The position numbers and the translations under genes are program-made. Below the pieces are notes generated by a model. The model saw only the letters and a program-made list of their open reading frames with translations, was not told the DNA's origin and made no database searches. Below are positions 1 to 14,115 of a stretch of 14,115 nt of DNA, piece after piece. Every line of letters begins with the position of its first letter. Position 1 is the first letter of the stretch. This DNA is from a virus: UHGV virus genome UHGV-0305805; one strand, given 5' to 3'.

Positions 1-133
1 AACAGCATACAGAAGGGGCTTAAAAGCCCCTTTAGTGTTTTATGGGTGAAAAAATTATGAAGAGTATGGAAATCCGGTCATCGGAAATCACTACCAGCGG
101 AGCCGGTACGCTGACGGGCTACGTTGTTCGCTG
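1..133. repeat. Inverted repeat, left copy: exact reverse complement of 3003-3135
   Basis: Base-by-base comparison: 1-133 equals the reverse complement of 3003-3135, and identity stops at 134 (g versus t). It contains the palindromic hairpin GGGGCTTAAAAGCCCC (14-29) plus T-rich tract, and the first ~30 codons of the protease gene. Confidence 0.9.
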
Positions 134-614
134 GGATAAGCTTTCAGAACTGCTATGGGGGGAGTTTTACGAAAAATTCCAGCGGGGGGCGTTTACTGAG
201 TGGCTTGCGGCGGGTAATGACGTTCGCGGCCTGTATGAGCATGACCACAGCATGTTACTGGGGCGCACCCGTTCCGGCACGCTGAAACTGGAAGAGGACG
301 AAACAGGGTTACGCTTTGAACTGACCCCACCGGATACCAGTACAGGGCGCGACGTTATCGAACTGGTTAAGCGTGGGGACATCTCGGGGATGAGCTTTGG
401 CTTTCGCTCCCGTAAGGATGTATGGGATACCACAACAGATCCATGCGTGCGCACCGTGCTGGTGGCGGAACTGTACGAAATTACCGTTACATCGGTACCG
501 GCTTACCCCGATTCCGGCGTGGAGCTGGCCCGCCGTTCCCTGTATGAGCAGCACCCCGAAAAAATGCCGCGTGCGGATAATCGCCGCTGGTGGGTGGATT
601 TAGCGGGGGTGTGA
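42..614 (+). CDS. Prohead maturation protease, HK97 / S78 family
   Basis: 190-aa ORF with the conserved histidine context LYEHDHSMLLGRT and serine context DISGMSFGF typical of this protease family. Stop overlaps the portal start region. A likelier start is ATG at 57, preceded by GGGTGA. Confidence 0.85.
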   Translation: MGEKIMKSMEIRSSEITTSGAGTLTGYVVRWDKLSELLWGEFYEKFQRGAFTEWLAAGNDVRGLYEHDHSMLLGRTRSGTLKLEEDETGLRFELTPPDTSTGRDVIELVKRGDISGMSFGFRSRKDVWDTTTDPCVRTVLVAELYEITVTSVPAYPDSGVELARRSLYEQHPEKMPRADNRRWWVDLAGV

Positions 615-615
615 T

Positions 616-1827: not shown

Positions 1828-2162
1828 ACATAGGGCGACTGCGTGACAGGATAACGATTCAGACCCTGAAACAGACCAGGGATATAACCGGCGAAATACT
1901 CGAAACGTGGGAGGACGGTCACACACTCTGGGCAAGCGTGAACATGGTCAGCAGCAAGGAGGCCATTTCATCGGGCGCAGAGCTGGCGATTGGTACCGTA
2001 AGGATCTGGATACGGTACCGGAAGGACATCAACGCCACCAGCCGGATAAAGGTCAGTACGGGGCCGCTGGCGGGGCGTGTACTGAATATCATCGGGCAGC
2101 CGCTGCCGGATGCCGCCAGGACACGCCTTGAAATTCTTTGTCGTGAGGGCGCGGAAAAATGA
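1824..2162 (+). CDS. Head closure / head-tail joining protein
   Basis: About 112 aa starting MNIGRLRDRITIQ at an ATGA overlap with the portal stop; contains an IRYRKDI-type motif common in head-tail joining proteins. The ORF track extends it to 1782. Confidence 0.6.
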   Translation: MNIGRLRDRITIQTLKQTRDITGEILETWEDGHTLWASVNMVSSKEAISSGAELAIGTVRIWIRYRKDINATSRIKVSTGPLAGRVLNIIGQPLPDAARTRLEILCREGAEK

Positions 2163-2455
2163 CAGAAGAACTTATCACCCTGGAAGAAGTGAAACTCCAT
2201 TGCCGCATCGATGGCGACGATGAAGACCAGTTAATCAGCGGATACATTGCCGCATCGCTTGAGGCGTGCCAGATACACATAGGCAGGCGCTTTGATGACG
2301 GGCTGGAGTTCACGCCAGCCATAAAGATTGGCTGCATGATGTTTATCGCTCACCTGTATGAAAATCGCCAGATTGTCGCGGATAACGCAAAAACACGCGT
2401 ACCCATGACGATAGGCGCACTCTGGACGGCTTACCGTGATGTGGGGGTGTACTGA
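2159..2455 (+). CDS. Head-tail connector (gp6-like DNA-packaging / connector protein)
   Basis: 98 aa; N-terminal ITLEEVKLHCRIDGDDEDQLI resembles the conserved N-terminus of gp6-type connectors. Translationally coupled on both sides. Confidence 0.65.
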   Translation: MTEELITLEEVKLHCRIDGDDEDQLISGYIAASLEACQIHIGRRFDDGLEFTPAIKIGCMMFIAHLYENRQIVADNAKTRVPMTIGALWTAYRDVGVY

Positions 2456-2895
2456 TGCCGTGGCAACCATTAAGACGATGCACAGAACCAGGCTGTAACA
2501 GGCGCGTTAAATCCGGCAAGTGTGAGGAGCACAGGCGGGCGGCATGGCGTGCAGAGGATGCCAGACGAGGACACCGCCGCGCGCGTGGATATTCCAGACA
2601 GTGGGACAAATACCGCGCCATGTATCTGAGTAAAAACCCGTTATGCGTGCGATGCCTTGAGAAGGGGATATATACGCCCGCCGTGGTGGTGGATCACATT
2701 ATCCCGATTAATGGCGGTGATGATGTTCTCTTCTGGCCCGAATGGAACCATCAACCATTGTGCCAGGCGTGTCATAACCAGAAAACGAAATGGCTTGATC
2801 CGGCAACAAAAAGCAAGCGTGCCGCAGGTGGATTTCGTGAAGAGGAAGAACGGGCCGCTAACCGCAATAACTGGATGTATGACGCTGATGAATGA
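2455..2895 (+). CDS. HNH endonuclease (packaging-associated)
   Basis: 146 aa with paired cysteine motifs (CTEPGCNRRV, CVRCLEKG) and the catalytic-type region VVDHIIPINGGDD...NHQPLCQACHNQKT. Confidence 0.85.
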   Translation: MPWQPLRRCTEPGCNRRVKSGKCEEHRRAAWRAEDARRGHRRARGYSRQWDKYRAMYLSKNPLCVRCLEKGIYTPAVVVDHIIPINGGDDVLFWPEWNHQPLCQACHNQKTKWLDPATKSKRAAGGFREEEERAANRNNWMYDADE

Positions 2896-3058
2896 GCGGG
2901 AACAAAACCGCCTTATCCGTGGACTTATAAGGCAGCGTGACGCATGGAAGACACAGGAAACAGGGCATAAAGATAAAGCGTCAGGACGCGCAGAACGCAT
3001 CACAGCGAACAACGTAGCCCGTCAGCGTACCGGCTCCGCTGGTAGTGATTTCCGATGA
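2888..3058 (+). CDS. Short ORF (56 aa) whose last 18 codons lie inside the inverted repeat; possible 5' remnant of a disrupted gene downstream of HNH
   Basis: ATG at 2888 overlaps the HNH stop. Codons 1-38 are unique sequence; the remainder is antisense of the protease 5' end supplied by the repeat. The longer 2657-3058 version in the ORF track overlaps HNH out of frame. Confidence 0.2.
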   Translation: MNEREQNRLIRGLIRQRDAWKTQETGHKDKASGRAERITANNVARQRTGSAGSDFR

Positions 3059-3135: not shown

Positions 3136-4291
3136 AATCGTCGTCCTGTGGCAGTTCCAGAATCTTGATCGCGTTCGAATCCACCACGCCACCGCCTAAA
3201 TATTTCTGCGTGAAAATTTTGATGAAGCCCGGCTCTGTGAGGTTGTCCGGTCTGGTGCGAACACCTGTTTCGTGATCAACAATGTAGTAACCGCGTTTGA
3301 AGTCACCCAGGGCAATAACGTTATCCGGCATAAACTCCAGATATTCGACCGGAAGGCCCAGTAACGTATCAGGATCACCCGCCTGTAAACGGTCGCGCCA
3401 GATGTAATCACCGTTCGCGTTCTTCACCTTCTGAAGTTTTGCCGCCGTCGTGGAGTTAACCACCCAGACCGCGTTTTTGCGGTATTTTTTACGTAATGCA
3501 AATTTCAGGTCGATCAGCGGGTCCGCAGATGTCCACGCCAGAGATTCGGAAGGTTTAATTACCTGCAACGTACCAAAATCACGCTCTTTGTCGTTCTTCT
3601 CTGCACGGGGTACGGATAAAAAGCCTTTTGCTTTTTTGTCACCGTCGCCCACAACCAGATCGCTTTCTTCGGTTTCCGTGAAGTTGTCGCCAATCTCGCC
3701 CGTCAGCCATGAAAGGATGTCCACATCGGAAAAATCCACGATTTCCTGCGTGGTGCGCGGGTACGCATAGACCGGATACAGCTTAATGCTCACCTCGTTA
3801 ATCTGCGGGGTGCTGGTCTGTTCGCGTGCCTTACCCTCTTCACCGTGGTTAACGGTCGCACCGCCAGCGGAAACAAGCTGCTTAAACTCGTTGCTGCTGA
3901 TTTTCTTCACGGTACAGATGCGGCGCATGGTGGATTCATCCGTCAGCATTCGCATGATTTCGGTGTTCAGTTCGGGGATAACGGTATAACCACCATCAGC
4001 GGGAACGCCTGTACTTAATGCGCGGGTTTCACCTGTCAGAATGTAGTGACGTAGTTCGGCTGGGTCAGTGGTCTGACTGCTTTTACCTGGCTTGCTGCGC
4101 TCTTCGTCTGCAATGGCTTCAAGGCGGGAAATGTCTTTATCGAGGGATTCAGCTTTAGCGCGTAATTCGTCAAATTTTGCGCCCTCAGCATCGTTAAGAC
4201 TGCGGTTTTCTTTTTCCGCGTTCTCCAGCATGTCGCGCATCTGATTTTTAATGGCGGTTTTCTGCTGGCGTAATTCGATTATTCTCGGCAT
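3134..4291 (-). CDS. Major capsid protein, HK97 fold, with an N-terminal coiled-coil (scaffold-like) domain
   Basis: 385 aa. The first ~70 residues are charged and heptad-like (ELRQQKTAIKNQMRDMLENAEKENRSL...), followed by a capsid-like body. Confidence 0.85.
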   Translation of the reverse strand: MPRIIELRQQKTAIKNQMRDMLENAEKENRSLNDAEGAKFDELRAKAESLDKDISRLEAIADEERSKPGKSSQTTDPAELRHYILTGETRALSTGVPADGGYTVIPELNTEIMRMLTDESTMRRICTVKKISSNEFKQLVSAGGATVNHGEEGKAREQTSTPQINEVSIKLYPVYAYPRTTQEIVDFSDVDILSWLTGEIGDNFTETEESDLVVGDGDKKAKGFLSVPRAEKNDKERDFGTLQVIKPSESLAWTSADPLIDLKFALRKKYRKNAVWVVNSTTAAKLQKVKNANGDYIWRDRLQAGDPDTLLGLPVEYLEFMPDNVIALGDFKRGYYIVDHETGVRTRPDNLTEPGFIKIFTQKYLGGGVVDSNAIKILELPQDDD

Positions 4292-4328
4292 AAAAAAAGT
4301 CCTGGGGTTAAGTAAGGAACTCCAGGAC
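4292..4328 (-). terminator. Leader hairpin plus U7 tract directly abutting the capsid start codon; the Shine-Dalgarno lies in the 3' arm
   Basis: Minus-strand RNA reads GUCCUGG...CCAGGAC then UUUUUUU then AUG. Stem 4299-4305 pairs with 4322-4328 and can extend by about 3 more pairs; AGGA is inside the 3' arm. Confidence 0.5.
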
Positions 4329-4503
4329 GCGGCAAAAACTCAACCGTTTTTCATAAGGAAATCAGCAATCGCACCGATCGTTTTCCCGCCTGGTAATGAA
4401 TATTGGCGAGAACATTAACAGGCGGAAAAGTGGCCCCAGCGTCCTGGCACCACGGGCGAGAATAATCATGATTCAGTTCGGGTAAAATATGCCGATCCGC
4501 TCA

Positions 4504-4532
4504 GTGAACAACGTGGAACAACCACGAACAAA
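4504..4532. promoter_or_regulatory. Phased GAACAA hexamers (x3, 10-bp spacing) including CAACGTGGAACAA; upstream of the capsid gene
   Basis: GAACAA at 4506, 4516 and 4526; the 13-mer CAACGTGGAACAA at 4509-4521. Confidence 0.4.
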
Positions 4533-4540
4533 TAATTTAC

Positions 4541-4572
4541 AAAACATGACAAAAAGCCGGATTGCTCCGGCT
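4541..4572 (-). terminator. Intrinsic terminator after the PerC-like gene
   Basis: Minus strand: AGCCGG-agcaat-CCGGCT followed by TTTTTGTCATGTTTT. Confidence 0.6.
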
Positions 4573-4578
4573 GTGTGA

Positions 4579-4860
4579 TTATCTGTCCTGGTAATTTCGC
4601 CATATTTCATTACCAGCACCATCCATACCCATTTCGGCATAAGTGCGATCGACCGCCTTTTTCAGGTCTCCGTAGTTATCCGGCGGCTCCGGTGGCCTCT
4701 GTGCCTTCCTGGAACATTCCAGCCGTCGCATCGTGATGTGATGCCGTTCCTTGTCTGTCTCCACCAGTTGCATGACTTCACCCCATCGCGCCGACGCTCT
4801 CCGGTAAAAGCCTTTCGCCTCCAGTTCTTCCGCTATGCGGTCATGTACCATCGTCCCCAC
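4579..4860 (-). CDS. Small regulator, PerC / ANR-like (tentative)
   Basis: 93 aa; the segment AEELEAKGFYRRASARWGEVM resembles the motif I recall for PerC/ANR-family small regulators. This is from memory and was not searched. Confidence 0.5.
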   Translation of the reverse strand: MGTMVHDRIAEELEAKGFYRRASARWGEVMQLVETDKERHHITMRRLECSRKAQRPPEPPDNYGDLKKAVDRTYAEMGMDGAGNEIWRNYQDR

Positions 4861-4863
4861 CCC

Positions 4864-5274
4864 TCAGAACGGAATATCATCACCGTAAGGGTCATCGCCT
4901 CCCGCTGGTGGCTGATTACCCTGTGTGCCTGTGGTCTTGCGTCGGCTCCCACCAGGACGTGCCGCACGGGCACTGATTACGCTGTCTGCAATAACCTGAT
5001 AACCCTGCCGCGTTTCCCCGTTCTGTCCGGTCCACTGGCTGACCTGCATCGTGCCGGATACGCTGGCAACGTCGCCTTTTTGATGTTTAGCCAGGAAGTC
5101 GGCCTGCTTACCAAATGCGATGACCGATAGCCATAACGTCGCCTGTCCATCCTGTGCCTGGCTGCATGGCAGCGATACCGCCATACGCGCCAGCGTCATC
5201 GGTGTACCCTTGCTGGTCTGTTTTACCTGCGGGTCGTCCACCAGCCGCCCGTAAGCTGCTATCTGTGCTGTCAT
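4864..5274 (-). CDS. ssb: Single-stranded DNA-binding protein
   Basis: 136 aa; Gly/Pro/Gln-rich linker and an acidic C-terminal tail ending DDIPF, the hallmark SSB tip. Confidence 0.8.
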   Translation of the reverse strand: MTAQIAAYGRLVDDPQVKQTSKGTPMTLARMAVSLPCSQAQDGQATLWLSVIAFGKQADFLAKHQKGDVASVSGTMQVSQWTGQNGETRQGYQVIADSVISARAARPGGSRRKTTGTQGNQPPAGGDDPYGDDIPF

Positions 5275-5549
5275 GATTCCACCTCTCCGGTTTTAACGTT
5301 GATGGTTGTTACCTGTTCCGCTTCGGCAATCTCCCGCTCTGTCAGCGTGGCAAAATTTGCCGCCGTCGTGGTCATGAATGCGCTTATCAGTTCGGGATGT
5401 GCTTTCGCGTATCCTTCCCCCGCGTGGCGGTCTATCGTTCTGATTGCCACCTTTAAAGCGTGCTCTGTCATGTCTAACGCGCGATATTTCGGTTCTGTTC
5501 TGTCTCTGCGTTTTTTGAGTGATTTATTAAATTTCCCTGAAGTGTGCAT
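5271..5549 (-). CDS. Hypothetical protein (92 aa)
   Basis: ORF between the origin iterons and ssb; its stop overlaps the ssb start (ATGA). Weak ribosome-binding site. Confidence 0.45.
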   Translation of the reverse strand: MHTSGKFNKSLKKRRDRTEPKYRALDMTEHALKVAIRTIDRHAGEGYAKAHPELISAFMTTTAANFATLTEREIAEAEQVTTINVKTGEVES

Positions 5550-5597
5550 ATTTATTTTTACCCCCTCGTTTAAAAAGTTTTGAGTTGTGCCTCCCCT

Positions 5598-5824
5598 TGT
5601 CTACCTTATCTACCTTAGTGGCCCTCATACCAGTAATGGCGCGGCTTTCAGCGGGGTAGAGTGCTTTTATCCACTATCTACCCCGTGTCTACCTCCCTGT
5701 CTGATTCAGGTAAAATCAGGTAGAGAGGGTAGATAGTGGGTAGACAGTAAAAAAAGGTTATCTACCTAACTTAATGCACTGAATTAAATGTATTTTTCTT
5801 TACTCAGGTAGACAGGGTAGACAG
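5598..5824. repeat. Iteron array, putative origin of replication (GGTAGACAG family, both orientations, with an AT-rich tract)
   Basis: At least 11 copies of GGTAGA[C/G/T]AG or its complement at 5598-5614, 5653-5661, 5674-5693, 5719-5747 (three in tandem), 5758-5766 and 5807-5824 (two in tandem). AT-rich stretch at 5770-5805. Immediately downstream of the primase gene. Confidence 0.75.
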
Positions 5825-5837
5825 CAATTACAAAAAA

Positions 5838-7592
5838 TTATAAAAACGCGTCGCACTCGTCTGTTGTTATTGCGTTAGTCTGCGTTACTCCCTTAACTTT
5901 CCGCGTAATATATTCATGTCCGTAAACTTTCGCGGCTGGCTTCATAGCCTTGCCAAAGTCATTTACGTTTAGCGGTTTGCTCCTGCCTGCGTACGCCATA
6001 AACGCCAGATAGACGCGGTAAAGGCTGTTTCTGGTCGTGTACTTCACTGAATCGCCACCGCCGCCCATCATCAGGCCGCGTGCTTCCTCCAGAAAATTCA
6101 GGAACTGGCAAAACTCAATAACCGGATCCGTCTGTTGCTTTATTGCCAGAGCTTCATCACCGTCACGCTGTTCCAGTAGTAAAGCCCGTGCCTTCTCAGG
6201 GTCGGTAAAGTTCGCCAGCAATCGGCGGATAATGACAGGGATTTCAGCCGCGATCTTTTCCGGTAGCTCCCTGTCTTTTTCGGCCTCACTGACGATATTG
6301 TCGAAACGGAAAATCACGCGACGACGTGCCACACCTCCGGCCCGTTCGGTGAATATCATCGGGTTATTGTTGGTCGCCAGCACCACCGCCCTGATTACCG
6401 CCGTGAAACGCTTTTCGTATTTCGGGTTAATTTCCACGGGGTCACCGCCCGTGATTTTCTTGATGCCCGTTCCTTCGCCTGTATATTTCGGCTGGTCAGC
6501 CAGGACGATAAGACGACTCCCGACAACCTGCGCACGTCCACCAGCATCATCAAGCGATGTCATTTCAGCGCTTACCGTGTTCTGTTTCCCTGCCAGAAGG
6601 CTGGCTATGTGTGTGAATGTACTTTTACCGCTCCCGCCGTCTCCGGTGGCCTCAATAAACATCTGCCAGTCGTACCGGTTCGCCATAATCATGTACAGCG
6701 CGGCACATATACGCATCATCTTGCGCGGGTCTTTTCCGGCTGCGTGCTCAAGCCATTTATGAAAGTTTGGCGCGTTATCGCGGATGTTCTCCCCTGGTGC
6801 TGGTGGCGTGTACTCAATGCCGTTGTGCGTGGTGATCCAGTTCTCCGGCGTGTGCGGGGAAAATTCCCCCGTTTTCAGGTCAAGCGCACCATTGGCGAAC
6901 GGCAACAAATCGCCGGACGGCTCGCCCATTGGTTCGGCAATAACTTTTAACGCTTCCACGGCGTTATTGATTACGCGCTTGCTGAAAGTGGCCCTGTGCT
7001 CTGAATAGATCGCCACCATTTCGCGGCTAAGTTCCATTGTGCTGACCGGACACCATACCCCGCCGCGCCATACGTGAACGATTTCACTTTCAGGATGTAC
7101 GCAAACGCCATCAAAGCGATCGGCAAGCAGCTGCGCGCGCTCACTGTCCGCCATCTGCGAAAGTTGCGCCTTTTGCTTTACCGGAAGCTCAATGACCAGA
7201 CCATCAGAAAGATTCTGGCGCTCACGGGCCAGATATTCGCGCCAGTTCTCCACCTTCTGACCGTGCATACCATCAGGGTAAAAATTTGCATCCTGTACGC
7301 CTGCCGCCGCCAGCTTCTGACCAATCGCCTTTATCATTACTGGCGCAAGATATCCGGCCCTGAATATGCGCACGGATTTTCTGCCTTCCGGCACAATTTG
7401 CAGCTTATCCAGTTCGGATAACTGCTGCTCCCCAAGCCACACAGGAGGCTCATTATCTCCGGCCATACGCGCGTCATGTTCCTGCCATTGTTTTGCGTGT
7501 GACCAGGCATCACTACCCGCAAAAATAATGACTTCTGTTTCTTTGTGTTTTATGCCGCGTGACTGCTGTTTTACGTTCGGTGCCAGTTTCAT
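5838..7592 (-). CDS. Primase / replicative helicase, P4-alpha-like
   Basis: 584 aa; Walker A GDGGSGKST and Walker B-like LIVLADQP in the C-terminal half, with a primase-like N-terminal half. Start overlaps the upstream ORF stop (ATGA). Confidence 0.85.
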   Translation of the reverse strand: MKLAPNVKQQSRGIKHKETEVIIFAGSDAWSHAKQWQEHDARMAGDNEPPVWLGEQQLSELDKLQIVPEGRKSVRIFRAGYLAPVMIKAIGQKLAAAGVQDANFYPDGMHGQKVENWREYLARERQNLSDGLVIELPVKQKAQLSQMADSERAQLLADRFDGVCVHPESEIVHVWRGGVWCPVSTMELSREMVAIYSEHRATFSKRVINNAVEALKVIAEPMGEPSGDLLPFANGALDLKTGEFSPHTPENWITTHNGIEYTPPAPGENIRDNAPNFHKWLEHAAGKDPRKMMRICAALYMIMANRYDWQMFIEATGDGGSGKSTFTHIASLLAGKQNTVSAEMTSLDDAGGRAQVVGSRLIVLADQPKYTGEGTGIKKITGGDPVEINPKYEKRFTAVIRAVVLATNNNPMIFTERAGGVARRRVIFRFDNIVSEAEKDRELPEKIAAEIPVIIRRLLANFTDPEKARALLLEQRDGDEALAIKQQTDPVIEFCQFLNFLEEARGLMMGGGGDSVKYTTRNSLYRVYLAFMAYAGRSKPLNVNDFGKAMKPAAKVYGHEYITRKVKGVTQTNAITTDECDAFL

Positions 7593-7888
7593 TTTTTACC
7601 CCTGAATCCGTTAATCATGGTTTTCAGCTTCTGGATGTTTGCCCGTGCCCTGGCGTTGCTGGTGGACACGTTATGCGGCGCGGTCTGTACCAGAGAAAAA
7701 TCACGCCGGAACTGATAAACAGGCATCACGCAATCATATTCGTAACCTTCACGGCGGTAGGTTACGCGCCGTTCTTCCACGCCCTTAATCATTACCGTGC
7801 CGCCGTACTGGTCGCGGTAAATATCGCCGCGCGTAAATTTAGGGTGAGTGTTGCCACTGGCAGTTAAGCCAGAATATTTAAGTTTCAT
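7589..7888 (-). CDS. Hypothetical protein (99 aa), translationally coupled to the primase
   Basis: ATG at 7886-7888; stop overlaps the primase start. Confidence 0.55.
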   Translation of the reverse strand: MKLKYSGLTASGNTHPKFTRGDIYRDQYGGTVMIKGVEERRVTYRREGYEYDCVMPVYQFRRDFSLVQTAPHNVSTSNARARANIQKLKTMINGFRGKK

Positions 7889-7893
7889 TATTT

Positions 7894-8127
7894 TTATTCT
7901 CCGGTGTGCTGTTCTTTATATCTGTCGTGCAATAGATCTATTTCTTGCAGTTCCATTATTACAGGCTCAAGAAGCGTTATTAATGCCGTGGCAATTCTTG
8001 ATTTTTGTTTGTCGCGTTCATTGTCGCCAAGTGTTTCAAGCCATATGCGCAATATTTCCAGCATGTTTTCACTGTGAGAAAGTGCAAGAAATGCGCGGTC
8101 TATTGTTTCGTGGTAAATATCACGCAT
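7894..8127 (-). CDS. Hypothetical protein (77 aa)
   Basis: ATG with GAGGA upstream; overlaps the stop of the upstream ORF by 8 nt. Confidence 0.55.
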   Translation of the reverse strand: MRDIYHETIDRAFLALSHSENMLEILRIWLETLGDNERDKQKSRIATALITLLEPVIMELQEIDLLHDRYKEQHTGE

Positions 8128-8353
8128 GGCTTACATCCTCAGGAAATTTTCTTCTATAACGCGCCTCTGCCACATATTCCGCATAATCGGCGGCGATATT
8201 CAGTACATCAAGCCCCGTTGATTTATATTCTCTCGTGGAAAGTAAGAAAAAAGCCGCTCTAATAAGTTCTGGCATTGACGAAAGCGCATCAGCCGCATCA
8301 TCAGGAACGCCGGAAAATTCCTGTTTCAGGGAATTAAAACGATCATCACGCAT
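8120..8353 (-). CDS. Hypothetical protein (77 aa)
   Basis: ATG with GGGGGG upstream; 8-nt overlap with the upstream ORF. Confidence 0.55.
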   Translation of the reverse strand: MRDDRFNSLKQEFSGVPDDAADALSSMPELIRAAFFLLSTREYKSTGLDVLNIAADYAEYVAEARYRRKFPEDVSHA

Positions 8354-8711
8354 GTTTACCCCCCTGAATGACCTGATAACCGCAACTGGTCAGCAACTCG
8401 ATAAATTCCGGCAGTGTGCCGAAACAGCAATCATCACGCAGCCGTTCACAGGATACCTCGACGCCGTTTTCGTAGTGACTCACCATACATCCGGTAAAAT
8501 GCAGATCATCATCGTGATGGCTCGTTGACGGCTTAATCAGTCGCGCACGTTCCGCCAGTTCCAGCAATGCTTCAACGCTTCCGGCAATTGCACCATCCGG
8601 CAGGTGATAATTACGCACTATGCGCCCGTTCTCCACATTGACCAGCAACTGCCCGGTAAATTTCTCATCAAACTGAATGCTGTTAAGGTCAGAAATTGAC
8701 AGATTATGCAT
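8346..8711 (-). CDS. Hypothetical protein (121 aa)
   Basis: ATG at 8709-8711 preceded by a perfect AGGAGG at about 6-nt spacing. The ORF track extends it to 8729. Confidence 0.6.
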   Translation of the reverse strand: MHNLSISDLNSIQFDEKFTGQLLVNVENGRIVRNYHLPDGAIAGSVEALLELAERARLIKPSTSHHDDDLHFTGCMVSHYENGVEVSCERLRDDCCFGTLPEFIELLTSCGYQVIQGGKHA

Positions 8712-8928
8712 GGTGCACCTCCTGCACATCAGCCATGATAATTTTTCCGGCCTTATCCAGTGCCTGATCGGCTTTTAGCTGCACAAATGCTAAATAATGG
8801 AAGATGCATTCTGATTCTCTGGCTGCGTGTTTATGCGCCCTGTCAGCAATAACAGAAATATCAATAAGCGCGTGCATCAGCGTAGTGAGCGCGGCGGCGG
8901 CTGCGTCCGGTGTGGTTTTATTGCACAT
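8704..8928 (-). CDS. Hypothetical protein (74 aa)
   Basis: ATG at 8926-8928 preceded by GGAGGGG. The ORF track extends it to 8982. Confidence 0.5.
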   Translation of the reverse strand: MCNKTTPDAAAAALTTLMHALIDISVIADRAHKHAARESECIFHYLAFVQLKADQALDKAGKIIMADVQEVHHA

Positions 8929-9148
8929 GTACCCCTCCGCATTTTTTTTCGTTAGAAATAAGCGTTCTTCTTTCCTGTTCATCGCTCAGGAATACGCAGA
9001 CCTCACCGCTAAGGCGTTTAAGTAAGCCGATGATTGCCCCTGATTCGCTGTCGGTCATCATGCCAGGGTAATCCTCTGCCAGTGCGCAAATAACTTCGAT
9101 TTGGTGGGCGCGTTCTGCTGCCTGTTGTAGTGTGATTTCCTGGCTCAT
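8918..9148 (-). CDS. Hypothetical protein (76 aa)
   Basis: ATG at 9146-9148 preceded by GGGGGTAGG; ATGA overlap with the upstream ORF. Confidence 0.55.
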   Translation of the reverse strand: MSQEITLQQAAERAHQIEVICALAEDYPGMMTDSESGAIIGLLKRLSGEVCVFLSDEQERRTLISNEKKCGGVHVQ

Positions 9149-9345
9149 AAGCCTACCCCCTGACGAATACGGGCAGCAAATACCATCACGCAGCCAGCCG
9201 GAGATTGCTGGCGTGCTTCCTGTTCGCTGGTGGCCTCAATGGTAATCACGCGCGGTTGTGCCGTGCTCAGGGCGATAAAACGCCAGATGTATTTATTCAG
9301 GTTGTGCGAGTCCCGCCCTTGCGGGTGTGTGGTATGATTTCTCAT
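9145..9345 (-). CDS. Hypothetical protein (66 aa), first gene of the leftward operon
   Basis: ATG at 9343-9345 preceded by GAGGTAG. It is the C-terminal part of a 340-aa ORF in the track that I regard as spurious upstream of this start. Confidence 0.5.
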   Translation of the reverse strand: MRNHTTHPQGRDSHNLNKYIWRFIALSTAQPRVITIEATSEQEARQQSPAGCVMVFAARIRQGVGL

Positions 9346-9441
9346 AGCTACCTCGATACTTTCGCTATCGTTGGTGGTTAGAAGCCCGGTTAGTGTTAGC
9401 GCACTGCCGGGTTTCGTCGTTTCTGCACCTTGCGCCAACAA

Positions 9442-9495
9442 GGTGTTGAACACCAATTTAAACCCAGGTGTTAAACACGTCAAGTGTTGAACACT
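9442..9495. promoter_or_regulatory. Three palindromic operator-like sites, GTGTT-N-AACAC, between divergent promoters
   Basis: GGTGTTGAACACC at 9442-9454, GTGTTAAACAC at 9468-9478, AGTGTTGAACACT at 9483-9495; centres 25 and 16 bp apart. The third overlaps a -35-like TTGAAC for the rightward gene. Confidence 0.6.
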
Positions 9496-9544
9496 TATTT
9501 TTTTTCCTGCATACTGCATTTGTTTTTTATGAGGGGTACACCAC

Positions 9545-9724
9545 ATGGCGACAAAAGCGGTAAACGCAAAATCACAAACCGTTGCGGCAAGGGTTCCGCA
9601 TGAAGTTATGAACAATGTTGAGGCGGTAAAAATGCCTGGCGAAAGTACGGGGCAATTTGTTACTGCGGCATTAAAACGAGAAGTTGAATATCGCCAGCGG
9701 CGCAAGGCCAAAGAACCAGAGTAA
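9545..9724 (+). CDS. Ribbon-helix-helix (Arc/CopG-like) DNA-binding protein, candidate repressor
   Basis: 59 aa, ATG preceded by GAGGGG at 8-nt spacing. Sequence fits a beta-strand (TVAARVPHEV) followed by two helices; basic C-terminus. Below the 60-aa cutoff of the ORF track. Confidence 0.55.
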   Translation: MATKAVNAKSQTVAARVPHEVMNNVEAVKMPGESTGQFVTAALKREVEYRQRRKAKEPE

Positions 9725-9781
9725 TCACCATCAGCGCCGTGGTGTAAGGTATTACGGCGCATTGCTATGCAGGACAACACA

Positions 9782-9955
9782 ATGACCGATAAAGAATTGA
9801 CCAAAACATTATCACCGGCACGGAAAAGACGGCGCAGAAAGATAGAGCATGAATCAGAAAGATTCGCGCCATGTGCTTTTGCCCTTGAGCAATTCCTTAA
9901 AGAGTACAGGGAAAAGCGCTCATTGCAGGTATGGCAACGAACTGAACCAGACTGA
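9782..9955 (+). CDS. Small basic protein (57 aa), possibly co-transcribed with the ribbon-helix-helix gene
   Basis: ATG at 9782 with AGGA about 9 nt upstream; arginine/lysine-rich (ARKRRRRKIEHE). Coding status uncertain. Confidence 0.3.
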   Translation: MTDKELTKTLSPARKRRRRKIEHESERFAPCAFALEQFLKEYREKRSLQVWQRTEPD

Positions 9956-10050
9956 TTGCATTGCCCACCAGCCTGATAACGGCTATCATCCCCGTGCTTA
10001 TGTTTGGGATCACACACACAAACGGCGCAGCGGGTTATCTGTTCAGAAAG

Positions 10051-10078
10051 GCGGCTCCATTTCGGGGCCGCTTTTTTT
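10051..10078 (+). terminator. Intrinsic terminator ending the rightward transcript
   Basis: GCGGCTCC-attc-GGGGCCGC followed by seven T. Confidence 0.65.
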
Positions 10079-10224
10079 ATACCTGAAAAACCCCAATTTT
10101 GTTGTTTTTCAGTTTCACCAGGGCGAACGAATCCCCGCCCACGTTCTGGCGTATATTCAATCTTCATGGTTATAGCTCTGTGTTCAGATGATTGATGTGT
10201 GGCGGCTGCGTGCCGCCAGCGTGA

Positions 10225-10413
10225 TTAATGAACTGCCTTGCAGCTATCCTTCCAGGCCAGAACCTCGGATAAAGACCAGCCAACGGAACGACCGCCAAGT
10301 TTACGACGTGATGGGAATTGTCCGGCCTTTTCCAGGCGGTAGCGACACGTACGGCTAAGGCCGGTTAGTTTTTCGCATTCTTTTTCACGTATAAACCGAT
10401 CAGTGCTTAACAC
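10225..10413 (-). CDS. alpA: AlpA-family phage regulatory protein (helix-turn-helix activator)
   Basis: Contains EKLTGLSRTCRYRLEKAGQFPSRRKLGGRSVGWSLSEVLAW, matching the AlpA helix-turn-helix signature. Likely start is GTG at 10411-10413 preceded by AGGGGGG; the ORF track extends it to 10494 with a TTG start. Confidence 0.8.
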   Translation of the reverse strand: MLSTDRFIREKECEKLTGLSRTCRYRLEKAGQFPSRRKLGGRSVGWSLSEVLAWKDSCKAVH

Positions 10414-10686
10414 TATTGCCCCCCTTTCGTTTCTTAAAGAGTCATCAGGTGTCTTATTGTGTCGTATTGTTCCCGCTAGAGTGATGAATGGCAAATACTG
10501 AGGATGTATGATTTACAGAAAATGAAACAGTAAGAATAAAATCTTTTAAATTCATGTTAATACAAAGGCATAAAATATTGTTCCATGCCTTTTTTCTCGC
10601 TCTTTAAAGAGTGATTCGCTAGTGTACAAAAAACCAGTAACGCATTAAAAATCAGCCACTTATAAATCCGTACGCTTTTTCGCCTC

Positions 10687-10730
10687 TTGTTCGTAGTTGT
10701 TCCACATTGTTGCTCATTGTTGCACGTTGT
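10687..10730. promoter_or_regulatory. Phased TTGTT[C/G] hexamers (x4, exactly 10-bp spacing) ending in the complement of CAACGTGCAACAA
   Basis: TTGTTC at 10687 and 10697, TTGTTG at 10707 and 10717; the 13-mer at 10717-10729. Located between the integrase stop and alpA, in opposite orientation to the other three clusters. Confidence 0.4.
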
Positions 10731-10778
10731 ATCTGTTCGCATATCCAGTATGCGCATACTGAAAAAACACGAAAAAAA

Positions 10779-12008
10779 TTATTTTCTTCTGGCTACGGGT
10801 AGCGTGGTTACGTTTTCATGTGTTCCCGCCAGTATCCCTAACCGCTCCGTCCACATATCCAGCGCATTGCGTTTCGCATCCAGATAACGGGAATGATTAT
10901 AAACTCGCTGCATTCCTGGCATCTGGTGGCCTGTAAGCTGCTCCACGACATGCGGATCAACGCCTAAATCGTTCAGCATGGTTGTAAAGGTGCGCCGGAT
11001 GTCATGCAGTGACCAGTGAGGGTGATTAAGCCTCCTGTACGCTAATCTTCCATACTGCGATACGCTGGCCTCCTGTTTCACTTCCCCCAGCAATAAGCCC
11101 GTGTGCCTGTTCTGCTCCACCAGCTGCGTGACGAACGGCAGGATCGCTTCCGGTATGGGCCGGAATATTGCGACCTTCGTTTTGCTGTGCTCCTTCGGAA
11201 CGGTCCATAGCATTTCCGTAAAATCCCACTCCCCGATCTCCGATAACCTCAGTTCTACCGTTCTGGCTCCGAAGACAATCAGGAGGCGGATTAACGCGAC
11301 GTAGTAAGGGGAGAATATTTTTTTGTCCAGTGCCTGCAATAATTCGCCAAGTTCTTTGTTACTTAAGACACGTTCGCTTATATCCGGTTTTTTCCCAACG
11401 TCCGCAACGTTCAGATCGTCCAGAACGTTGCTGATTGCATAGCGCCGCCTACGGCAGAACTTAAGCGCCTGTTTGCACGCCTGTAGCACGAATCCGGCAG
11501 TAACAGGCGTTCGCTTTGCCACCTGGTCAAAACAGGCCAGCCAGTGCCGTAGCTCGCATTTATCCAGCGGCATAGCACCAATCTGCTGTATTACGTGATT
11601 ATTAAGTCGCCTTTTCAGGGCGATATAATCCACGCGGTTTTCCTTTACGTAATACTCAAGCCAGTAGGTGAGCGCATCGCCAACCGTTACGGGCTTTAAC
11701 GCTTCCTGTACGGTGTAATTCATCTCATGACGTGGATTTTTCCCCTCAGCCAGCCATGTGCGACACTGTGCGGCTTTTTCCCTGGCTGCTTTCAGGCTCA
11801 GATCAGGATAACTTCCCAGCTTAATGCGTTCGGGTCGTGTCTCCCTTCCCGTTCCGGCCCTGTATGTGAAATACCAGGTCAATTTCCCTGATGTTAAATA
11901 TTTCACGCTCAGGTTTCCGCCATCACTATAAAACGTGTTTTTCTCCGCTGGCTTACCATGAAGTTTCCTTAGCAAGGTATCGCTCAGTTTGTTCATTGCT
12001 CTGCTCAC
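10779..12008 (-). CDS. int: Tyrosine recombinase / integrase, P4-like
   Basis: 409 aa with catalytic-region motifs ARTVELR, HDIRRTF and a C-terminal YNHSRYLD tyrosine context. Start could be GTG at 12008 or ATG at 11996. Confidence 0.9.
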   Translation of the reverse strand: MSRAMNKLSDTLLRKLHGKPAEKNTFYSDGGNLSVKYLTSGKLTWYFTYRAGTGRETRPERIKLGSYPDLSLKAAREKAAQCRTWLAEGKNPRHEMNYTVQEALKPVTVGDALTYWLEYYVKENRVDYIALKRRLNNHVIQQIGAMPLDKCELRHWLACFDQVAKRTPVTAGFVLQACKQALKFCRRRRYAISNVLDDLNVADVGKKPDISERVLSNKELGELLQALDKKIFSPYYVALIRLLIVFGARTVELRLSEIGEWDFTEMLWTVPKEHSKTKVAIFRPIPEAILPFVTQLVEQNRHTGLLLGEVKQEASVSQYGRLAYRRLNHPHWSLHDIRRTFTTMLNDLGVDPHVVEQLTGHQMPGMQRVYNHSRYLDAKRNALDMWTERLGILAGTHENVTTLPVARRK

Positions 12009-12033
12009 GTTTTACCCCCTCTTTACGAAAAAG

Positions 12034-12056
12034 TGACTACACCAGTGACTACACCG
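12034..12056. repeat. 23-bp direct repeat, copy 1: TGACTACACCAGTGACTACACCG (tandem decamers)
   Basis: Exact match to 12267-12289. Sits 26-48 bp upstream of the integrase start and is followed by CAACGTGAAACAA (12076-12088) and phased GAACAA-like hexamers to about 12109. Confidence 0.8.
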
Positions 12057-12266
12057 ATCGTTGCACAAAGGGCTACAACGTGAAACAAGCTGGAACAAGG
12101 AAAATCACAAATCTGTTGATAATCAAAAACATAATGCACAGCCTGAAACATTATGAAACAGCAAAAAACACTAAATGATAAAATGCTGTTATATATAACT
12201 TATTTCGCATAACACATTGATTTAATTAAATAATTAACACCGCAAAAAGTGCCAAAAATCGCAAAA

Positions 12267-12289
12267 TGACTACACCAGTGACTACACCG
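12267..12289. repeat. 23-bp direct repeat, copy 2, followed by CAACGTGGAACAA (12309-12321)
   Basis: Exact match to copy 1. The 210 bp between the two copies is strongly AT-rich. Confidence 0.8.
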
Positions 12290-12551
12290 TTCGGTGCACT
12301 GTATGAAACAACGTGGAACAAATAGACACAAGAAATATACAGGCGGATCATCTTTCCAGGGGGAAGCACACCAATTCATGAGGGGCGTTAATGTCGATAT
12401 GGGGATCCCCACCTACCGGAATTTTTTTCCGGTTAAACGTTAATCAGGCTGGTGGGCTTTACCTGTTCGGTAGGTGTTATGATTATCGTAATACCTTTCC
12501 CCCAATGGGGTAAAAGCATCAACCGTAACGAAAGTCGTTATGGTTGCCACT

Positions 12552-12662
12552 GATACCCCAAATTTGGGTATCACGAGTAAGCCCCAAAATCTGGGTGTTA
12601 CTCTTACTACCCAAACTACGGGTAGTTTCCGTAGTTTCATGGTCGAGTTGCAGATCTGCAAC
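12552..12662. repeat. Cluster of four palindromes/hairpins in a gene-free region
   Basis: GATACCCCAAATTTGGGTATC (12552-12572); a CCCAAA...GGG unit near 12582-12597; ACTACCC-aaactac-GGGTAGT (12606-12626); perfect palindrome GTTGCAGATCTGCAAC (12647-12662). The first three share a CCCAAA-N-GGG(T) core spaced about 26 bp. Confidence 0.5.
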
Positions 12663-12918
12663 TCCCCCATTAACCACAGGCGAATTTCCGCCTTCGGTCA
12701 TTCCTTAATCATCTGCGTAATCATAATGATTATTCAGCAAGCGCAATTTTGCGCTTTGCTTAAAGTTCAGCGAGTTACCGCGCCGACTTCCTCAAATTGA
12801 GGTTTCCGAAAATATCAGCGGGTTAGCGATTAAGCTGACCATTAATTAAACTGCGAAAATGTCGTAGTTGTGAGGGGTGTAGCCAACCCATTTTTGGGCC
12901 GTCGGGAATATCAACCAG

Positions 12919-13213: not shown

Positions 13214-13963
13214 TTACACCCCGCTAAATTCTTCCAGTTTCTGGCGGTGGCTGTCGCTTATATCAAAAGCAAAATCCTCATGCTCTGCCTGGAATGTACC
13301 AAACGCCATCAGCGCCGCCACGCTCGGGTCTATCTTGTTCGGTGATTTTTTCTTGTTCGGCTTGATATTGGCGTTCGCGTCACTCTGCATCACGACGTTA
13401 CTCATCGACCAGGACAACACCGGATCGCCACGATGCACAATCACCCTGCGGTTAACAAAAACTTCGAACGATTTCGCCGCCGGACTGAATCTGAGGTAGG
13501 TTTGCGGGAACGGCTCCACCTCAAAACCTGCCCCCTGTAATTGCGTTCTGAGATGCGTGGCGTTCCACGTATCAAAGCCCACCAGCCTGATATTAAATTT
13601 CTCCGCGTCCTGCATGATGTCATCTCTGATCCGGTCGTAATCAATGCAGTCGCCAGGCGTTGTGCGTATCCAGCCTGCTTTAGCCCACTGACGATAGATG
13701 GCGCGGTTTTTATTGGCGGGGTTCTGTAGCTGAAATTCCGGCAGATAGTGACGGGAAACCAGCATAATGGTTTTACCGACCGGAAAGGCATAGCACACGC
13801 TGGAAATATCGCTGGTTGATGATAAGTCCAGCCCCGCGTAACACTCCTGGCCGTGTAAATCTTCCTCCGTGAACGTTCCGGCACACTCAGCCCATGCGCC
13901 GTTACCCATCCACGGGGTAGCCCCCTGGCACCAGATATTAAATCGCTTTGTCATCATCTCCAC
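13214..13963 (-). CDS. Terminase large subunit, C-terminal nuclease domain only (N-terminal ATPase absent; truncated or rearranged)
   Basis: 249 aa with acidic nuclease-type motifs YAGLDLSSTSD, LVGFDTWN and KIDPSVAALMAF. No Walker A. The reading frame upstream is closed by a stop about 12 codons before the start, and the start lies inside an inverted repeat. Confidence 0.65.
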   Translation of the reverse strand: MEMMTKRFNIWCQGATPWMGNGAWAECAGTFTEEDLHGQECYAGLDLSSTSDISSVCYAFPVGKTIMLVSRHYLPEFQLQNPANKNRAIYRQWAKAGWIRTTPGDCIDYDRIRDDIMQDAEKFNIRLVGFDTWNATHLRTQLQGAGFEVEPFPQTYLRFSPAAKSFEVFVNRRVIVHRGDPVLSWSMSNVVMQSDANANIKPNKKKSPNKIDPSVAALMAFGTFQAEHEDFAFDISDSHRQKLEEFSGV

Positions 13964-13979
13964 CCACTGCGACGGAATA
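13922..13979. repeat. Inverted repeat, inner copy: reverse complement of 14058-14115, the last bases of the window
   Basis: Exact 58-bp match separated by a 78-bp spacer (13980-14057). The outer copy runs off the window, so the repeat may be longer. Confidence 0.9.
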
Positions 13980-14057
13980 GTGGATAAAGGCGAACCCTAA
14001 TATTGATGTTTCCGTCGATCGTGAAAAACTGGCCTCAACCATCCAGAAAGCGCGGGG

Positions 14058-14115
14058 TATTCCGTCGCAGTGGGTGGAGATGATGACAAAGCGATTTAAT
14101 ATCTGGTGCCAGGGG
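14058..14115. repeat. Inverted repeat, outer copy; the plus strand here reads the sense start of the terminase fragment (…IPSQWVEMMTKRFNIWCQG)
   Basis: Reverse complement of 13922-13979; the reading frame continues off the window. Confidence 0.9.

What the first reader, a model, noticed from the sequence alone, without database searches (positions are those of the whole stretch)
4504..12331. A 13-bp motif CAACGTGNAACAA with 10-bp-phased GAACAA hexamers recurs at four loci
The motif is at 4509-4521, 12076-12088 and 12309-12321 on the plus strand and at 10717-10729 on the minus strand. Each copy sits within 3-4 GAACAA-like hexamers spaced one helical turn apart. The loci are upstream of the capsid, on both sides of the integrase gene, and between the integrase and alpA. 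This looks like a regulon or arm-type site set for one DNA-binding protein (AlpA, integrase N-domain, the PerC-like protein or a helper factor), distinct from the origin iterons.
Basis: seen in the sequence. Interest (0 to 1): 0.55.

Follow-up and report, generated by a model that had tools for sequence, protein, structure and literature searches.

The report
Candidate AlpA operator arrays in a phage satellite
Four clusters of short repeats spaced one DNA turn apart in an E. coli capsid-forming phage satellite are most likely the docking sites of its small excisionase-type regulator AlpA, which would link cutting the element out of the chromosome to switching on its genes.

Summary
CAACGTGNAACAA occurs exactly four times at the stated coordinates, against 0 expected. 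Each copy is two adjacent units of a 10-bp-phased array, nnnG-nAACAA, with 3-5 units per array.

The window is a capsid-forming PICI of E. coli. It includes an attP-like junction, because the element is a tandem duplicate in strain EC444. Arrays C (12063-12098) and D (12306-12341) flank the 9-bp att core (12184-12192). They sit on the P and P' arms, not on both sides of int. Array B follows int and array A precedes the capsid operon.

Beside C and D lies a separate doubled motif, GTGACTACACC x2. It co-varies with the integrase N-domain on both arms, so it is the likely arm-type site. The phased arrays instead change with the AlpA allele (TTGTTCC-type versus TTGTTCG-type). They follow the known grammar of excisionase (RDF) operators and resemble TorI sites (GTTCG). 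Arrays B and E lie inside the fragment that AlpA activates experimentally in EcCICFT073.

Best reading, at about 0.55: these are cooperative AlpA sites serving excision and transcription. No binding data exist, and array A does not co-vary with AlpA. This is a new member of a known kind, of moderate interest.

The parts
4502..4552 (+). Array A. It has three exact units (cagtGAACAA, cgtgGAACAA, ccacGAACAA) and two degenerate ones (TTACAA, TGACAA). It lies just after the perC terminator and about 215 bp before the capsid start codon. It is inverted relative to the genes.
   Evidence: It is conserved with the cf-PICI capsid-operon upstream module in 25 AlpA1-type and 4 AlpA2-type relatives.
4555..4572 (-). 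Intrinsic-terminator-like hairpin after perC. It separates the early genes from the capsid operon.
4459..4486 (-). Weak promoter-like site, TTTACC-N16-TATTCT. With this site as the promoter, the array A units would be centred near -56, -66 and -76. This is inferred and falls below the scan threshold.
   Evidence: Read from the sequence. The default scan did not report it.
10687..10736 (-). Array B. It has five units at exact 10-bp steps (ATACAA, CAACAA, CAACAA, GAACAA, GAACAA) and starts 43 nt after the int stop codon.
   Evidence: In 43 of 49 distinct relatives there are at least 5 exact ACAA at 10-bp steps. Spacers vary and unit number changes in 10-bp steps.
10447..10476 (-). Array E, not in the finding. 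It has GAACAA, ACACAA and ACACCT units at 10-bp steps. It overlaps the -10 of a promoter-like site just upstream of alpA.
   Evidence: GACAC is phased in 45 of 49 distinct relatives.
10466..10494 (-). Promoter-like site TTGCCA-N17-AACAAT upstream of alpA. The TTGCCA hexamer is conserved among relatives.
10225..10413 (-). alpA, encoding a 62-aa winged-helix protein of the AlpA/excisionase family. It is the proposed binder of the arrays.
   Evidence: Pfam PF05930 and the RefSeq annotation. The model has pLDDT 86. Its best fold match is the GIsul2 excisionase 8c3t (TM 0.79), followed by RdfS and Pukovnik Xis.
10779..12008 (-). int, a P4-type tyrosine integrase with an N-terminal arm-DNA-binding domain.
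12033..12055 (+). Doubled motif GTGACTACACC x2 at 12-bp spacing in the P arm. It is the probable Int arm-type site.
   Evidence: It co-varies with the Int N-domain type.
12063..12098 (+). Array C in the P arm. It has four units at exact 10-bp steps (GCACAA, CTACAA, AAACAA, GAACAA) and lies about 100 bp from the core.
12109..12121 (-). IHF-like site TATCAACAGATTT, a 12 of 13 match to WATCAANNNNTTR.
   Evidence: Read from the sequence.
12143..12170 (+). Core-proximal phased units (TGAAACATTA, TGAAACAGCA, AAAAACACTA). They are not significant on their own. Their support is that AlpA2-type elements carry GTGTTCG x2 at the same place.
   Evidence: (score 16.1 bits, within the range of the shuffles).
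12184..12192 (.). att core TGCTGTTAT. It is the identity block shared by attL, attR and the window's junction. The target gene is tqsA.
12210..12222 (-). Exact IHF consensus AATCAATGTGTTA in the P' arm.
12266..12288 (+). Doubled motif in the P' arm (ATGACTACACC, GTGACTACACC).
12306..12341 (+). Array D in the P' arm. Its units are AAACAA, GAACAA and ACACAA, plus a degenerate TATACA. It lies about 130 bp from the core. In the integrated state it is at the far (TerL) end of the element.

Best explanation
The four loci are operator arrays for the satellite's own AlpA protein, a 62-aa winged-helix member of the excisionase (recombination directionality factor, RDF) family. One AlpA monomer would bind each nnnG-nAACAA unit, head to tail on one face of the helix. 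Three to five protomers would assemble cooperatively and bend the DNA.

Arrays C and D sit next to the integrase arm-type sites (the doubled GTGACTACACC motif) on the two arms of the attachment site. There AlpA would shape attL and attR for excision. Array B, together with the weaker array E, lies in front of alpA and would give the known positive autoregulation. Array A lies behind the perC terminator, upstream of a weak promoter-like site, and would switch on the capsid operon.

Shown here: the arrays, their phasing and conservation, their positions relative to the att core, the AlpA fold, and the co-variation patterns. Inferred: that AlpA is the binder, the direction of each regulatory effect, and the promoters.
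For: 1. Grammar. Established RDFs (Apl, Cox, Xis, Vis, TorI, RdfS) bind direct repeats about one helical turn apart, with weak single-site specificity. Several act both at att and at promoters (PMC7498355; PMC11963761). The arrays have exactly this form.

2. The protein. AlpA hits Pfam Phage_AlpA. Its model has pLDDT 86 and best matches the GIsul2 excisionase (TM 0.79, 39% identity), then RdfS and Pukovnik Xis.

3. Motif resemblance. Mapped TorI sites are GTTCG, GATCG and GTCCG, in blocks within attL (PMC2951348). The units here read TTGTTC(C/G) on the other strand.

4. att geometry. C and D flank the 9-bp core, with IHF-type sites between them and the core.

5. Double dissociation.
- The doubled motif follows the Int N-domain variant on both arms while AlpA is identical. 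VKYLTSGK goes with GTAGTCAC/T and VRHSTSGL goes with GTAGT(T/C)AAT. This held in every case: 29 P-arm copies and 22 P'-arm copies among the loci, plus the two P' arms fetched separately.
- The arrays do not change with that Int variant. In elements carrying a second AlpA allele (about 52% identity in the best aligned segment) they change in concert. Those elements have TTGTTCG x3 on P', TTGTTCG-type units on P, GTGTTCG x2 next to the core, and CGAAC x3 before alpA, while the doubled motif stays the same.

6. Constraint. Array B keeps ACAA at exact 10-bp steps in 43 of 49 distinct relatives. Spacers vary and units are gained or lost in 10-bp steps.

7. Experiment in the literature. AlpA activates a PalpA-lacZ fusion in EcCICFT073 (PMC6092414). 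Mapping its primers shows that the 456-bp fragment contains arrays B and E.
Against: - No binding data exist for any PICI AlpA.
- AlpA did not change Pint-lacZ in EcCICFT073. That fragment starts upstream of array C and, if its reverse primer lies in int, includes it. The reverse primer did not map within 2 mismatches. So any role at C is not transcriptional, or AlpA does not bind there.
- Array A does not co-vary with the AlpA allele. Four AlpA2-type cf-PICIs carry the same or a similar array A.
- AlpA2-type elements have a different phased unit, AATATC(G/T), where array B sits.
- Array B lies about 190 bp upstream of the best promoter-like site for alpA, with a terminator-like hairpin in between.
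- The co-variation rests on few independent lineages. Int also differs (about 75% identity) between the two AlpA groups.
- The unit difference between the alleles is small (TTGTTCC versus TTGTTCG).
Confidence: 0.55

Rival explanations
1. The arrays are bound by another factor that is not AlpA or Int. Candidates are a helper-phage inducer of alpA, a host winged-helix regulator of the OmpR/PhoB type (these also read 10-11 bp direct repeats), or another satellite protein.
For: Helper phages switch on alpA through an unidentified phage product (PMC6092414; PMC11773190). Array A is unchanged in elements with the other AlpA allele. The core-proximal units TGAAACAT resemble OmpR half-sites; this last point rests on my own knowledge and was not tested.
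Against: A phage or host factor would not explain why all att-arm and alpA-proximal arrays change together with the element's AlpA allele. It would also not explain why the sites sit beside Int arm sites on both att arms. PerC is excluded for arrays B and C, because relatives without perC keep them.
Confidence: 0.18
2. The arrays are integrase arm-type sites, possibly low-affinity ones, read by the N-terminal arm-binding domain. The internal copies A and B would let Int regulate alpA and the capsid genes.
For: Int has an Arm-DNA-bind_3 domain. C and D lie on both arms of attP in the same orientation, as arm sites often do. The units share a TGT core with the doubled motif.
Against: When the Int N-domain changes (VKYLTSGK versus VRHSTSGL), the doubled motif changes on both arms but the arrays stay identical. 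A and B are kilobases from any core. Four doubled-motif half-sites already match the four protomers of an Int tetramer, as proposed for the analogous HE-PICI motif (PMC10111431).
Confidence: 0.1
3. The repeats have no protein partner. They would be relics of segmental duplication and module shuffling, or merely intrinsically curved DNA.
For: C and D are part of a 76-nt duplicated module, and A, B and D share 25-35 nt of similarity. PICIs are highly mosaic.
Against: ACAA stays in exact 10-bp register while the spacers diverge. Units are added or lost in 10-bp steps. The units change in concert at several loci in the AlpA2 lineage. No arrays occur in 62.7 kb of flanking chromosome or in the shuffles.
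Confidence: 0.05

Closest known systems
Phage 186 Apl and P2 Cox, dual-purpose RDFs
   Same: Their operators are direct repeats 10-11 bp apart, with five at att and seven at the pR-pL switch. Binding is cooperative, bends the DNA and recognises sequence flexibly. One protein serves both excision and transcription (PMC7498355).
   Different: Apl and Cox belong to a different HTH lineage and repress their promoters. Here the protein is an AlpA-type winged helix that activates. The arrays lie on both att arms and in front of a capsid operon.
TorI and IntS in the attL of prophage KplE1
   Same: TorI is a winged-helix RDF. It has five sites in two blocks within the int-proximal att arm, next to Int arm-type sites. 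The pentamers GTTCG, GATCG and GTCCG are very like the TTGTTC(C/G) units here (PMC2951348).
   Different: The TorI sites described in that study all lie in attL, and TorI represses intS. In EcCICFT073 AlpA did not affect Pint. No TorI sites at late promoters are described there.
Vis of satellite phage P4
   Same: Vis is the AlpA homologue of another E. coli satellite and is needed for excision (PMC6092414). It bends att DNA (PMC7498355). From my own knowledge (Polo 1996), it also regulates P4 late promoters.
   Different: Vis is only remotely related to PICI AlpA. Its site sequences could not be compared here, because the papers are not in the library.
The doubled motif of helper-embedded PICIs (tgTGTATTGCantgTGTATTGCa)
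   Same: There are two co-oriented copies of a tandem 12-bp-spaced motif on either side of the attP core. They lie 81 and 132 bp from the centre there, and about 89 and 144 bp here. The binder is unknown (PMC10111431).
   Different: That motif corresponds to the GTGACTACACC doubled motif of this window, not to the GAACAA arrays of the finding. It was reported as absent from other PICIs. This window shows a diverged equivalent with an extra phased array attached to each copy.
RdfS of ICEMlSymR7A
   Same: RdfS is a winged-helix RDF that oligomerises on DNA. It binds attP upstream of intS and also binds its own promoter (PMC11963761). It is a fold match to AlpA (TM 0.68).
   Different: RdfS binds extended regions without clear repeats. 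It represses its own promoter and activates intS.

Membership tests
RDF (excisionase) operator array | Direct repeats spaced about one helical turn apart, several per site | tested here: met
   There are 3-5 units at 10-bp steps in each of the four arrays. TRF reports period 10 at 10697-10730 and at 10449-10470.
RDF (excisionase) operator array | Located in an att arm, near the core and the Int arm-type sites | tested here: met
   The core is mapped to 12184-12192 from attL, attR and attB. Arrays C and D lie about 100 and 130 bp away, each beside a doubled motif. Arrays A and B are not in att.
RDF (excisionase) operator array | The element encodes a cognate small RDF-family DNA-binding protein | tested here: met
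   AlpA hits PF05930. Its fold matches the GIsul2 excisionase, RdfS and Pukovnik Xis.
RDF (excisionase) operator array | The repeat sequence co-varies with the RDF allele | tested here: inconclusive
   The att-arm and alpA-proximal arrays shift from AACAA-type to CGAAC-type with the second AlpA allele. Array A does not shift. Few independent lineages were available, and Int also differs between the groups.
RDF (excisionase) operator array | Cooperative binding and bending by the RDF; requirement for excision | not testable with these tools
   This needs EMSA, footprinting and excision assays.
Integrase arm-type sites | The sequence co-varies with the Int N-terminal arm-binding domain | tested here: not met
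   The arrays are identical between the VKYLTSGK-type and VRHSTSGL-type Int. The neighbouring doubled motif changes on both arms in every case examined.
Integrase arm-type sites | Confined to the arms of the attachment site | tested here: not met
   Arrays A (4502-4552) and B (10687-10736) are internal. They lie about 7.6 kb and 1.45 kb from the core.
Replication-origin iterons | Same repeat as the iterons next to the primase/rep gene, flanking an AT-rich stretch | tested here: not met
   The ori repeats are GGTAGACAG/CTGTCTACC at 5590-5830. They are a different sequence with 9-12 bp periods.
Pseudomonas AlpA antiterminator and its ABE site | A Q-like protein with a C-terminal HTH (DNA-contact residues 128-142) that recognises a single GGGACG element between -35 and -10 | tested here: not met
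   The protein here is 62 aa, a winged helix only. The sites are multi-copy arrays of a different sequence (PMC9371919).
Capsid-forming PICI (context of the finding) | int-alpA-primase module plus its own capsid, protease, portal, connector, HNH and terminase genes, about 15 kb | tested here: met
   Pfam hits. The identical 15,263-bp element is annotated in E. coli EC444 and E11. It matches the description of EcCIEDL933 (bioRxiv 10.1101/2022.09.08.507074).

The most novel reading that the evidence does not exclude
A single operator code read by an excisionase-family protein wires three steps of a capsid-forming satellite's life cycle into one switch. The steps are excision (arrays on both att arms, each fused to a doubled Int arm site in a duplicated 76-nt arm cassette), self-amplifying alpA expression, and direct activation of the satellite's own capsid operon. 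This would make AlpA the late-gene activator. It would also define a symmetric two-cassette attP architecture not described for lambda-type systems.
Probability: 0.25. Interest if true: 0.6.

Novelty: new member of a known kind. Interest (0 to 1): 0.42.

Why it matters
AlpA is the master switch of Gram-negative PICIs and cf-PICIs. Its expression is necessary for induction, and in EcCICFT073 it is sufficient to trigger excision and replication. None of the papers I could search defines its DNA target.

A concrete, conserved operator (nnnG-nAACAA at 10-bp steps) has now been located at the att arms, at alpA and at the capsid operon. This makes several questions directly testable:
- whether AlpA is both excisionase and activator;
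- how the late (capsid) operon of cf-PICIs is turned on;
- which repeat the integrase arm domain reads.

It also extends the doubled attP motif, previously reported only for helper-embedded PICIs, to the tqsA, roxA and cspD PICI clade.

Tried and rejected
- A scan of species-representative genomes with AlpA returned only 5 loci. The distant ones (Geobacter, Shewanella, MAGs) showed no interpretable arrays upstream of alpA, so broad co-variation could not be done.
- The Pseudomonas AlpA antiterminator analogy was checked and dropped. It is a different protein with a single GGGACG site.
- PerC as the binder was dropped, because relatives without perC keep arrays B and C.
- Origin iterons were dropped, because the repeat is different.
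- Default promoter scans found nothing near array A. Around array B they found only sites far downstream of the array, so promoter assignments remain inference.
- The core-proximal GAAACA units (12143-12170) are not significant on their own.
- Rfam found no RNA family in the window.
- A literature search for PDB entry 8c3t found no paper.
- The reverse primer of the published Pint fusion did not map within 2 mismatches. Only the start of that fragment is known.

Full report
**Observation.** The pattern CAACGTGNAACAA occurs four times, at 4509-4521(+), 10717-10729(-), 12076-12088(+) and 12309-12321(+). None of 200 dinucleotide-preserving shuffles gave a match. Reading the sequence shows that the 13-mer is not a unit. 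It spans the end of one unit (ACAA), a spacer (CGTG) and the next hexamer (NAACAA) of arrays with a 10-bp period.
- Array A has GAACAA at 4506, 4516 and 4526, and degenerate units at 4537 and 4547.
- Array B, on the minus strand, has five units between 10687 and 10732.
- Array C has four units, at 12063, 12073, 12083 and 12093.
- Array D has three to four units, at 12306, 12316, 12326 and 12336.

A strict definition, at least three [AC]ACAA at 9-11 bp steps, finds three arrays in the window and none in 500 shuffles. It finds none in 62.7 kb of neighbouring E. coli chromosome. A position matrix built from the units gives phased-triplet scores of 33-38 bits, against a shuffle maximum of 23.5. 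That matrix came from the same arrays, so the comparison is circular. The copies are not independent. C and D lie in a 76-nt duplicated module, and A, B and D share 25-35 nt of similarity.

**Context.** The window is a capsid-forming PICI. On the minus strand it carries int (12008-10779), alpA (10413-10225), a D5-type primase, SSB, PerC and an HK97-type capsid gene. Protease, portal, connector, HNH and terminase genes are also present. An identical 15,263-bp element sits in tqsA of E. coli E11 as a single copy, and in strain EC444 as a tandem duplicate.

Comparing attL, attR and the window gives a 9-bp core, TGCTGTTAT, at 12184-12192. The stretch 12009-12440 of the window is therefore an attP-type junction. 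The P arm is next to int, and the P' arm belongs to the terminase end of the next copy. Arrays C and D are thus not on both sides of int. They flank the core at about 100 and 130 bp. In a single integrated element, D lies 15 kb away at the other end.

The window itself is chimeric at its ends. Positions 1-3009 are inverted and 13980-14115 is a fold-back, relative to EC444. All four loci lie in the colinear part.

**A second repeat, and which protein reads which.** Next to C and D there is a doubled motif, GTGACTACACC twice at 12-bp spacing, at 12033-55 and 12266-88. It is found only in the att arms. It has the same layout as the doubled motif reported for helper-embedded PICIs, whose binder is unknown (PMC10111431).

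I collected 80 related loci from IMG/VR and several E. coli genomes.
- Integrases with the N-domain strand VKYLTSGK carry GGTGTAGTCAC/T, on the P arm in 11 of 11 copies and on the P' arm in 12 of 12.
- Integrases with VRHST(S/N)GL carry GGTGTAGT(T/C)AAT, on the P arm in 18 of 18 copies and on the P' arm in 10 of 10. The two P' arms fetched separately agree.
- AlpA is identical across this contrast, and the GAACAA arrays do not change.
- A recombinant integrase (L035) has the tqsA-type N-domain at the roxA site. It keeps the motif of its N-domain.

The doubled motif is therefore the likely arm-type site of Int.

Elements with a second AlpA allele (about 52% identity in the best aligned segment) show the converse. 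They keep the roxA-type doubled motif, but every array changes in concert. They have TTGTTCG x3 on P', TTGTTCG-type units on P, GTGTTCG x2 next to the core, and (A/G)CGAAC x3 upstream of alpA. Phased CGAAC occurs in 23 of 24 distinct spacers of this group, and phased AACAA in 48 of 49 of the first group.

**Why AlpA.** AlpA hits Pfam Phage_AlpA. Its model (pLDDT 86) best matches the GIsul2 excisionase (TM 0.79), then RdfS and Pukovnik Xis. Overexpressing GIsul2 AlpA raises the level of circular intermediates (PMC9376610).

Known RDFs bind direct repeats one helical turn apart, cooperatively and with loose specificity. Several act both at att and at promoters. Apl has five sites at att and seven at pR-pL, and Cox, Vis and RdfS are further examples (PMC7498355; PMC11963761). 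The mapped TorI sites in KplE1 attL are GTTCG, GATCG and GTCCG (PMC2951348). These closely resemble the TTGTTC(C/G) units here. IHF-type sites lie between the arrays and the core, with an exact consensus at 12210-12222.

In EcCICFT073, AlpA activates a PalpA-lacZ fusion and does not affect Pint-lacZ (PMC6092414). Mapping the published primers shows that the PalpA fragment contains arrays B and E. The Pint fragment starts upstream of array C, but its reverse primer did not map.

Array B shows signs of constraint. In 43 of 49 distinct relatives it keeps at least five ACAA at exact 10-bp steps. The spacers diverge, and units are gained or lost in 10-bp steps.

**Proposed mechanism.** AlpA protomers line up head to tail on the arrays.
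- At attL (doubled motif, array C, an IHF-like site, proximal units, core) and at attR (core, IHF site, doubled motif, array D), they would bend the arms. This would let Int N-domains on the doubled motifs cooperate with core-bound catalytic domains, favouring excision.
- At arrays B and E they would raise alpA transcription.
- At array A they would activate the capsid operon. This array sits just after the perC terminator, with its units centred near -56 to -76 of a weak TTTACC-N16-TATTCT site.

Only the sequence anatomy, the conservation and the protein fold are shown. The binding, the promoters and the sign of regulation are inferred.

**Weak points.**
- There are no binding data.
- Array A travels with the cf-PICI capsid module and is essentially unchanged in four AlpA2-type elements. 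It contains one TTGTTCG unit, so this is compatible with AlpA binding but not supportive of it.
- AlpA2-type elements carry AATATC(G/T) phased units where array B sits. This is unexplained.
- Array B is about 190 bp from the best promoter-like site for alpA, with a conserved terminator-like hairpin between them.
- The co-variation rests on few independent lineages.

**Rivals.**
- Another factor, from helper phage, host or satellite: about 0.18.
- Int arm-type sites: about 0.10. This is disfavoured by the dissociation described above and by the internal positions of A and B.
- Non-functional duplication relics or curved DNA: about 0.05. This is disfavoured by the conserved phasing.
- PerC is excluded for B and C, because relatives without perC keep them.
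- The origin iterons are a different repeat.
- The Pseudomonas AlpA antiterminator is an unrelated protein with a single GGGACG site.

**Verdict.** The interpretation, a site set for one DNA-binding protein that is distinct from the ori iterons, is partly supported and can be sharpened: AlpA is the probable reader of the arrays, and Int the probable reader of the adjacent doubled motif. This is a new member of a known kind, namely RDF-type phased operators with dual recombination and transcription roles. Its value is that no DNA target for PICI AlpA appears in the literature I could search.

Noticed in passing
window 1-3009 and 13980-14115: The window is chimeric relative to the identical element in E. 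coli EC444. Positions 1-3009 (protease to HNH) are the reverse complement of the expected continuation, joined at an 11-bp overlap (2999-3009). Positions 13980-14115 fold back on 13922-13979. These are probably assembly or amplification artefacts. TerL is truncated by the fold-back.
   Followed up: yes
window 12033-12055 and 12266-12288: A doubled motif, GTGACTACACC x2 at 12-bp spacing, lies on both att arms. It co-varies with the integrase N-domain beta-strand (VKYLTSGK versus VRHSTSGL) on both arms in all related loci examined. It is a diverged equivalent of the doubled motif reported only for helper-embedded PICIs.
   Followed up: yes
window 10447-10494 (minus strand): A fifth phased array (GAACAA, ACACAA, ACACCT) overlaps the -10 of a conserved promoter-like site, TTGCCA-N17-AACAAT, just before alpA. 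Relatives differ here by exact 10-bp insertions.
   Followed up: partly
window 12400-12700 (minus strand): A run of near-perfect hairpins or palindromes (for example GTTGCAGATCTGCAAC) lies between the last gene and array D. The RNA fold z-score is -9.2. The region is conserved in an AlpA2-type element (L094) and has no Rfam match. It could be a packaging (cos) region or a structured RNA.
   Followed up: partly
window 4296-4335 (minus strand): A terminator-like hairpin followed by T7 ends immediately before the capsid ATG (4291) and buries the AGGA ribosome-binding site. The whole 176-nt leader folds with z = -4. This suggests attenuation or translational control of the capsid operon.
   Followed up: partly
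L069-L091, first 90 nt after the int stop: Elements with the second AlpA allele carry a hairpin and then 3-4 units of AATATC(G/T) at 10-bp steps where array B sits in this window. This is a different phased repeat with no assigned binder.
   Followed up: no
window 5590-5830: The replication origin lies downstream of the primase gene. It has multiple GGTAGACAG/CTGTCTACC iterons in both orientations around an AT-rich stretch.
   Followed up: partly
window 10560-10650 (minus strand): A highly conserved block (ACTGGTTTTTTGTACACTAGCGAATCAC...) is followed by a hairpin with an A-tract before it and a T-tract after it (AAAAAAGGCAT...ATGCCTTTG), between array B and alpA. It could be the int terminator, or a small transcript or attenuator.
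   Followed up: no
L035 (IMGVR_UViG_2859821903_000003): This is a recombinant integrase, with a tqsA-type N-terminal arm domain on an element inserted at the roxA site. It shows that arm-binding and core-binding specificities are exchanged as modules.
   Followed up: partly
L065, L071, L081, L082, L085, about 7 kb downstream of int: Some relatives encode a second, divergent AlpA-like winged-helix protein (ERLVDMNQVMELTTLSRRTLLNLEARGEFP...) near the distal end of the element. It is absent from this window.
   Followed up: no
L003 (original coordinates about 3150-3180): A classical, non-capsid-forming O157 PICI has a 2-3 unit array (TCTGAAACAA, ACAGACACAA) just after perC. It is in the opposite orientation to array A of this window.
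   Followed up: no
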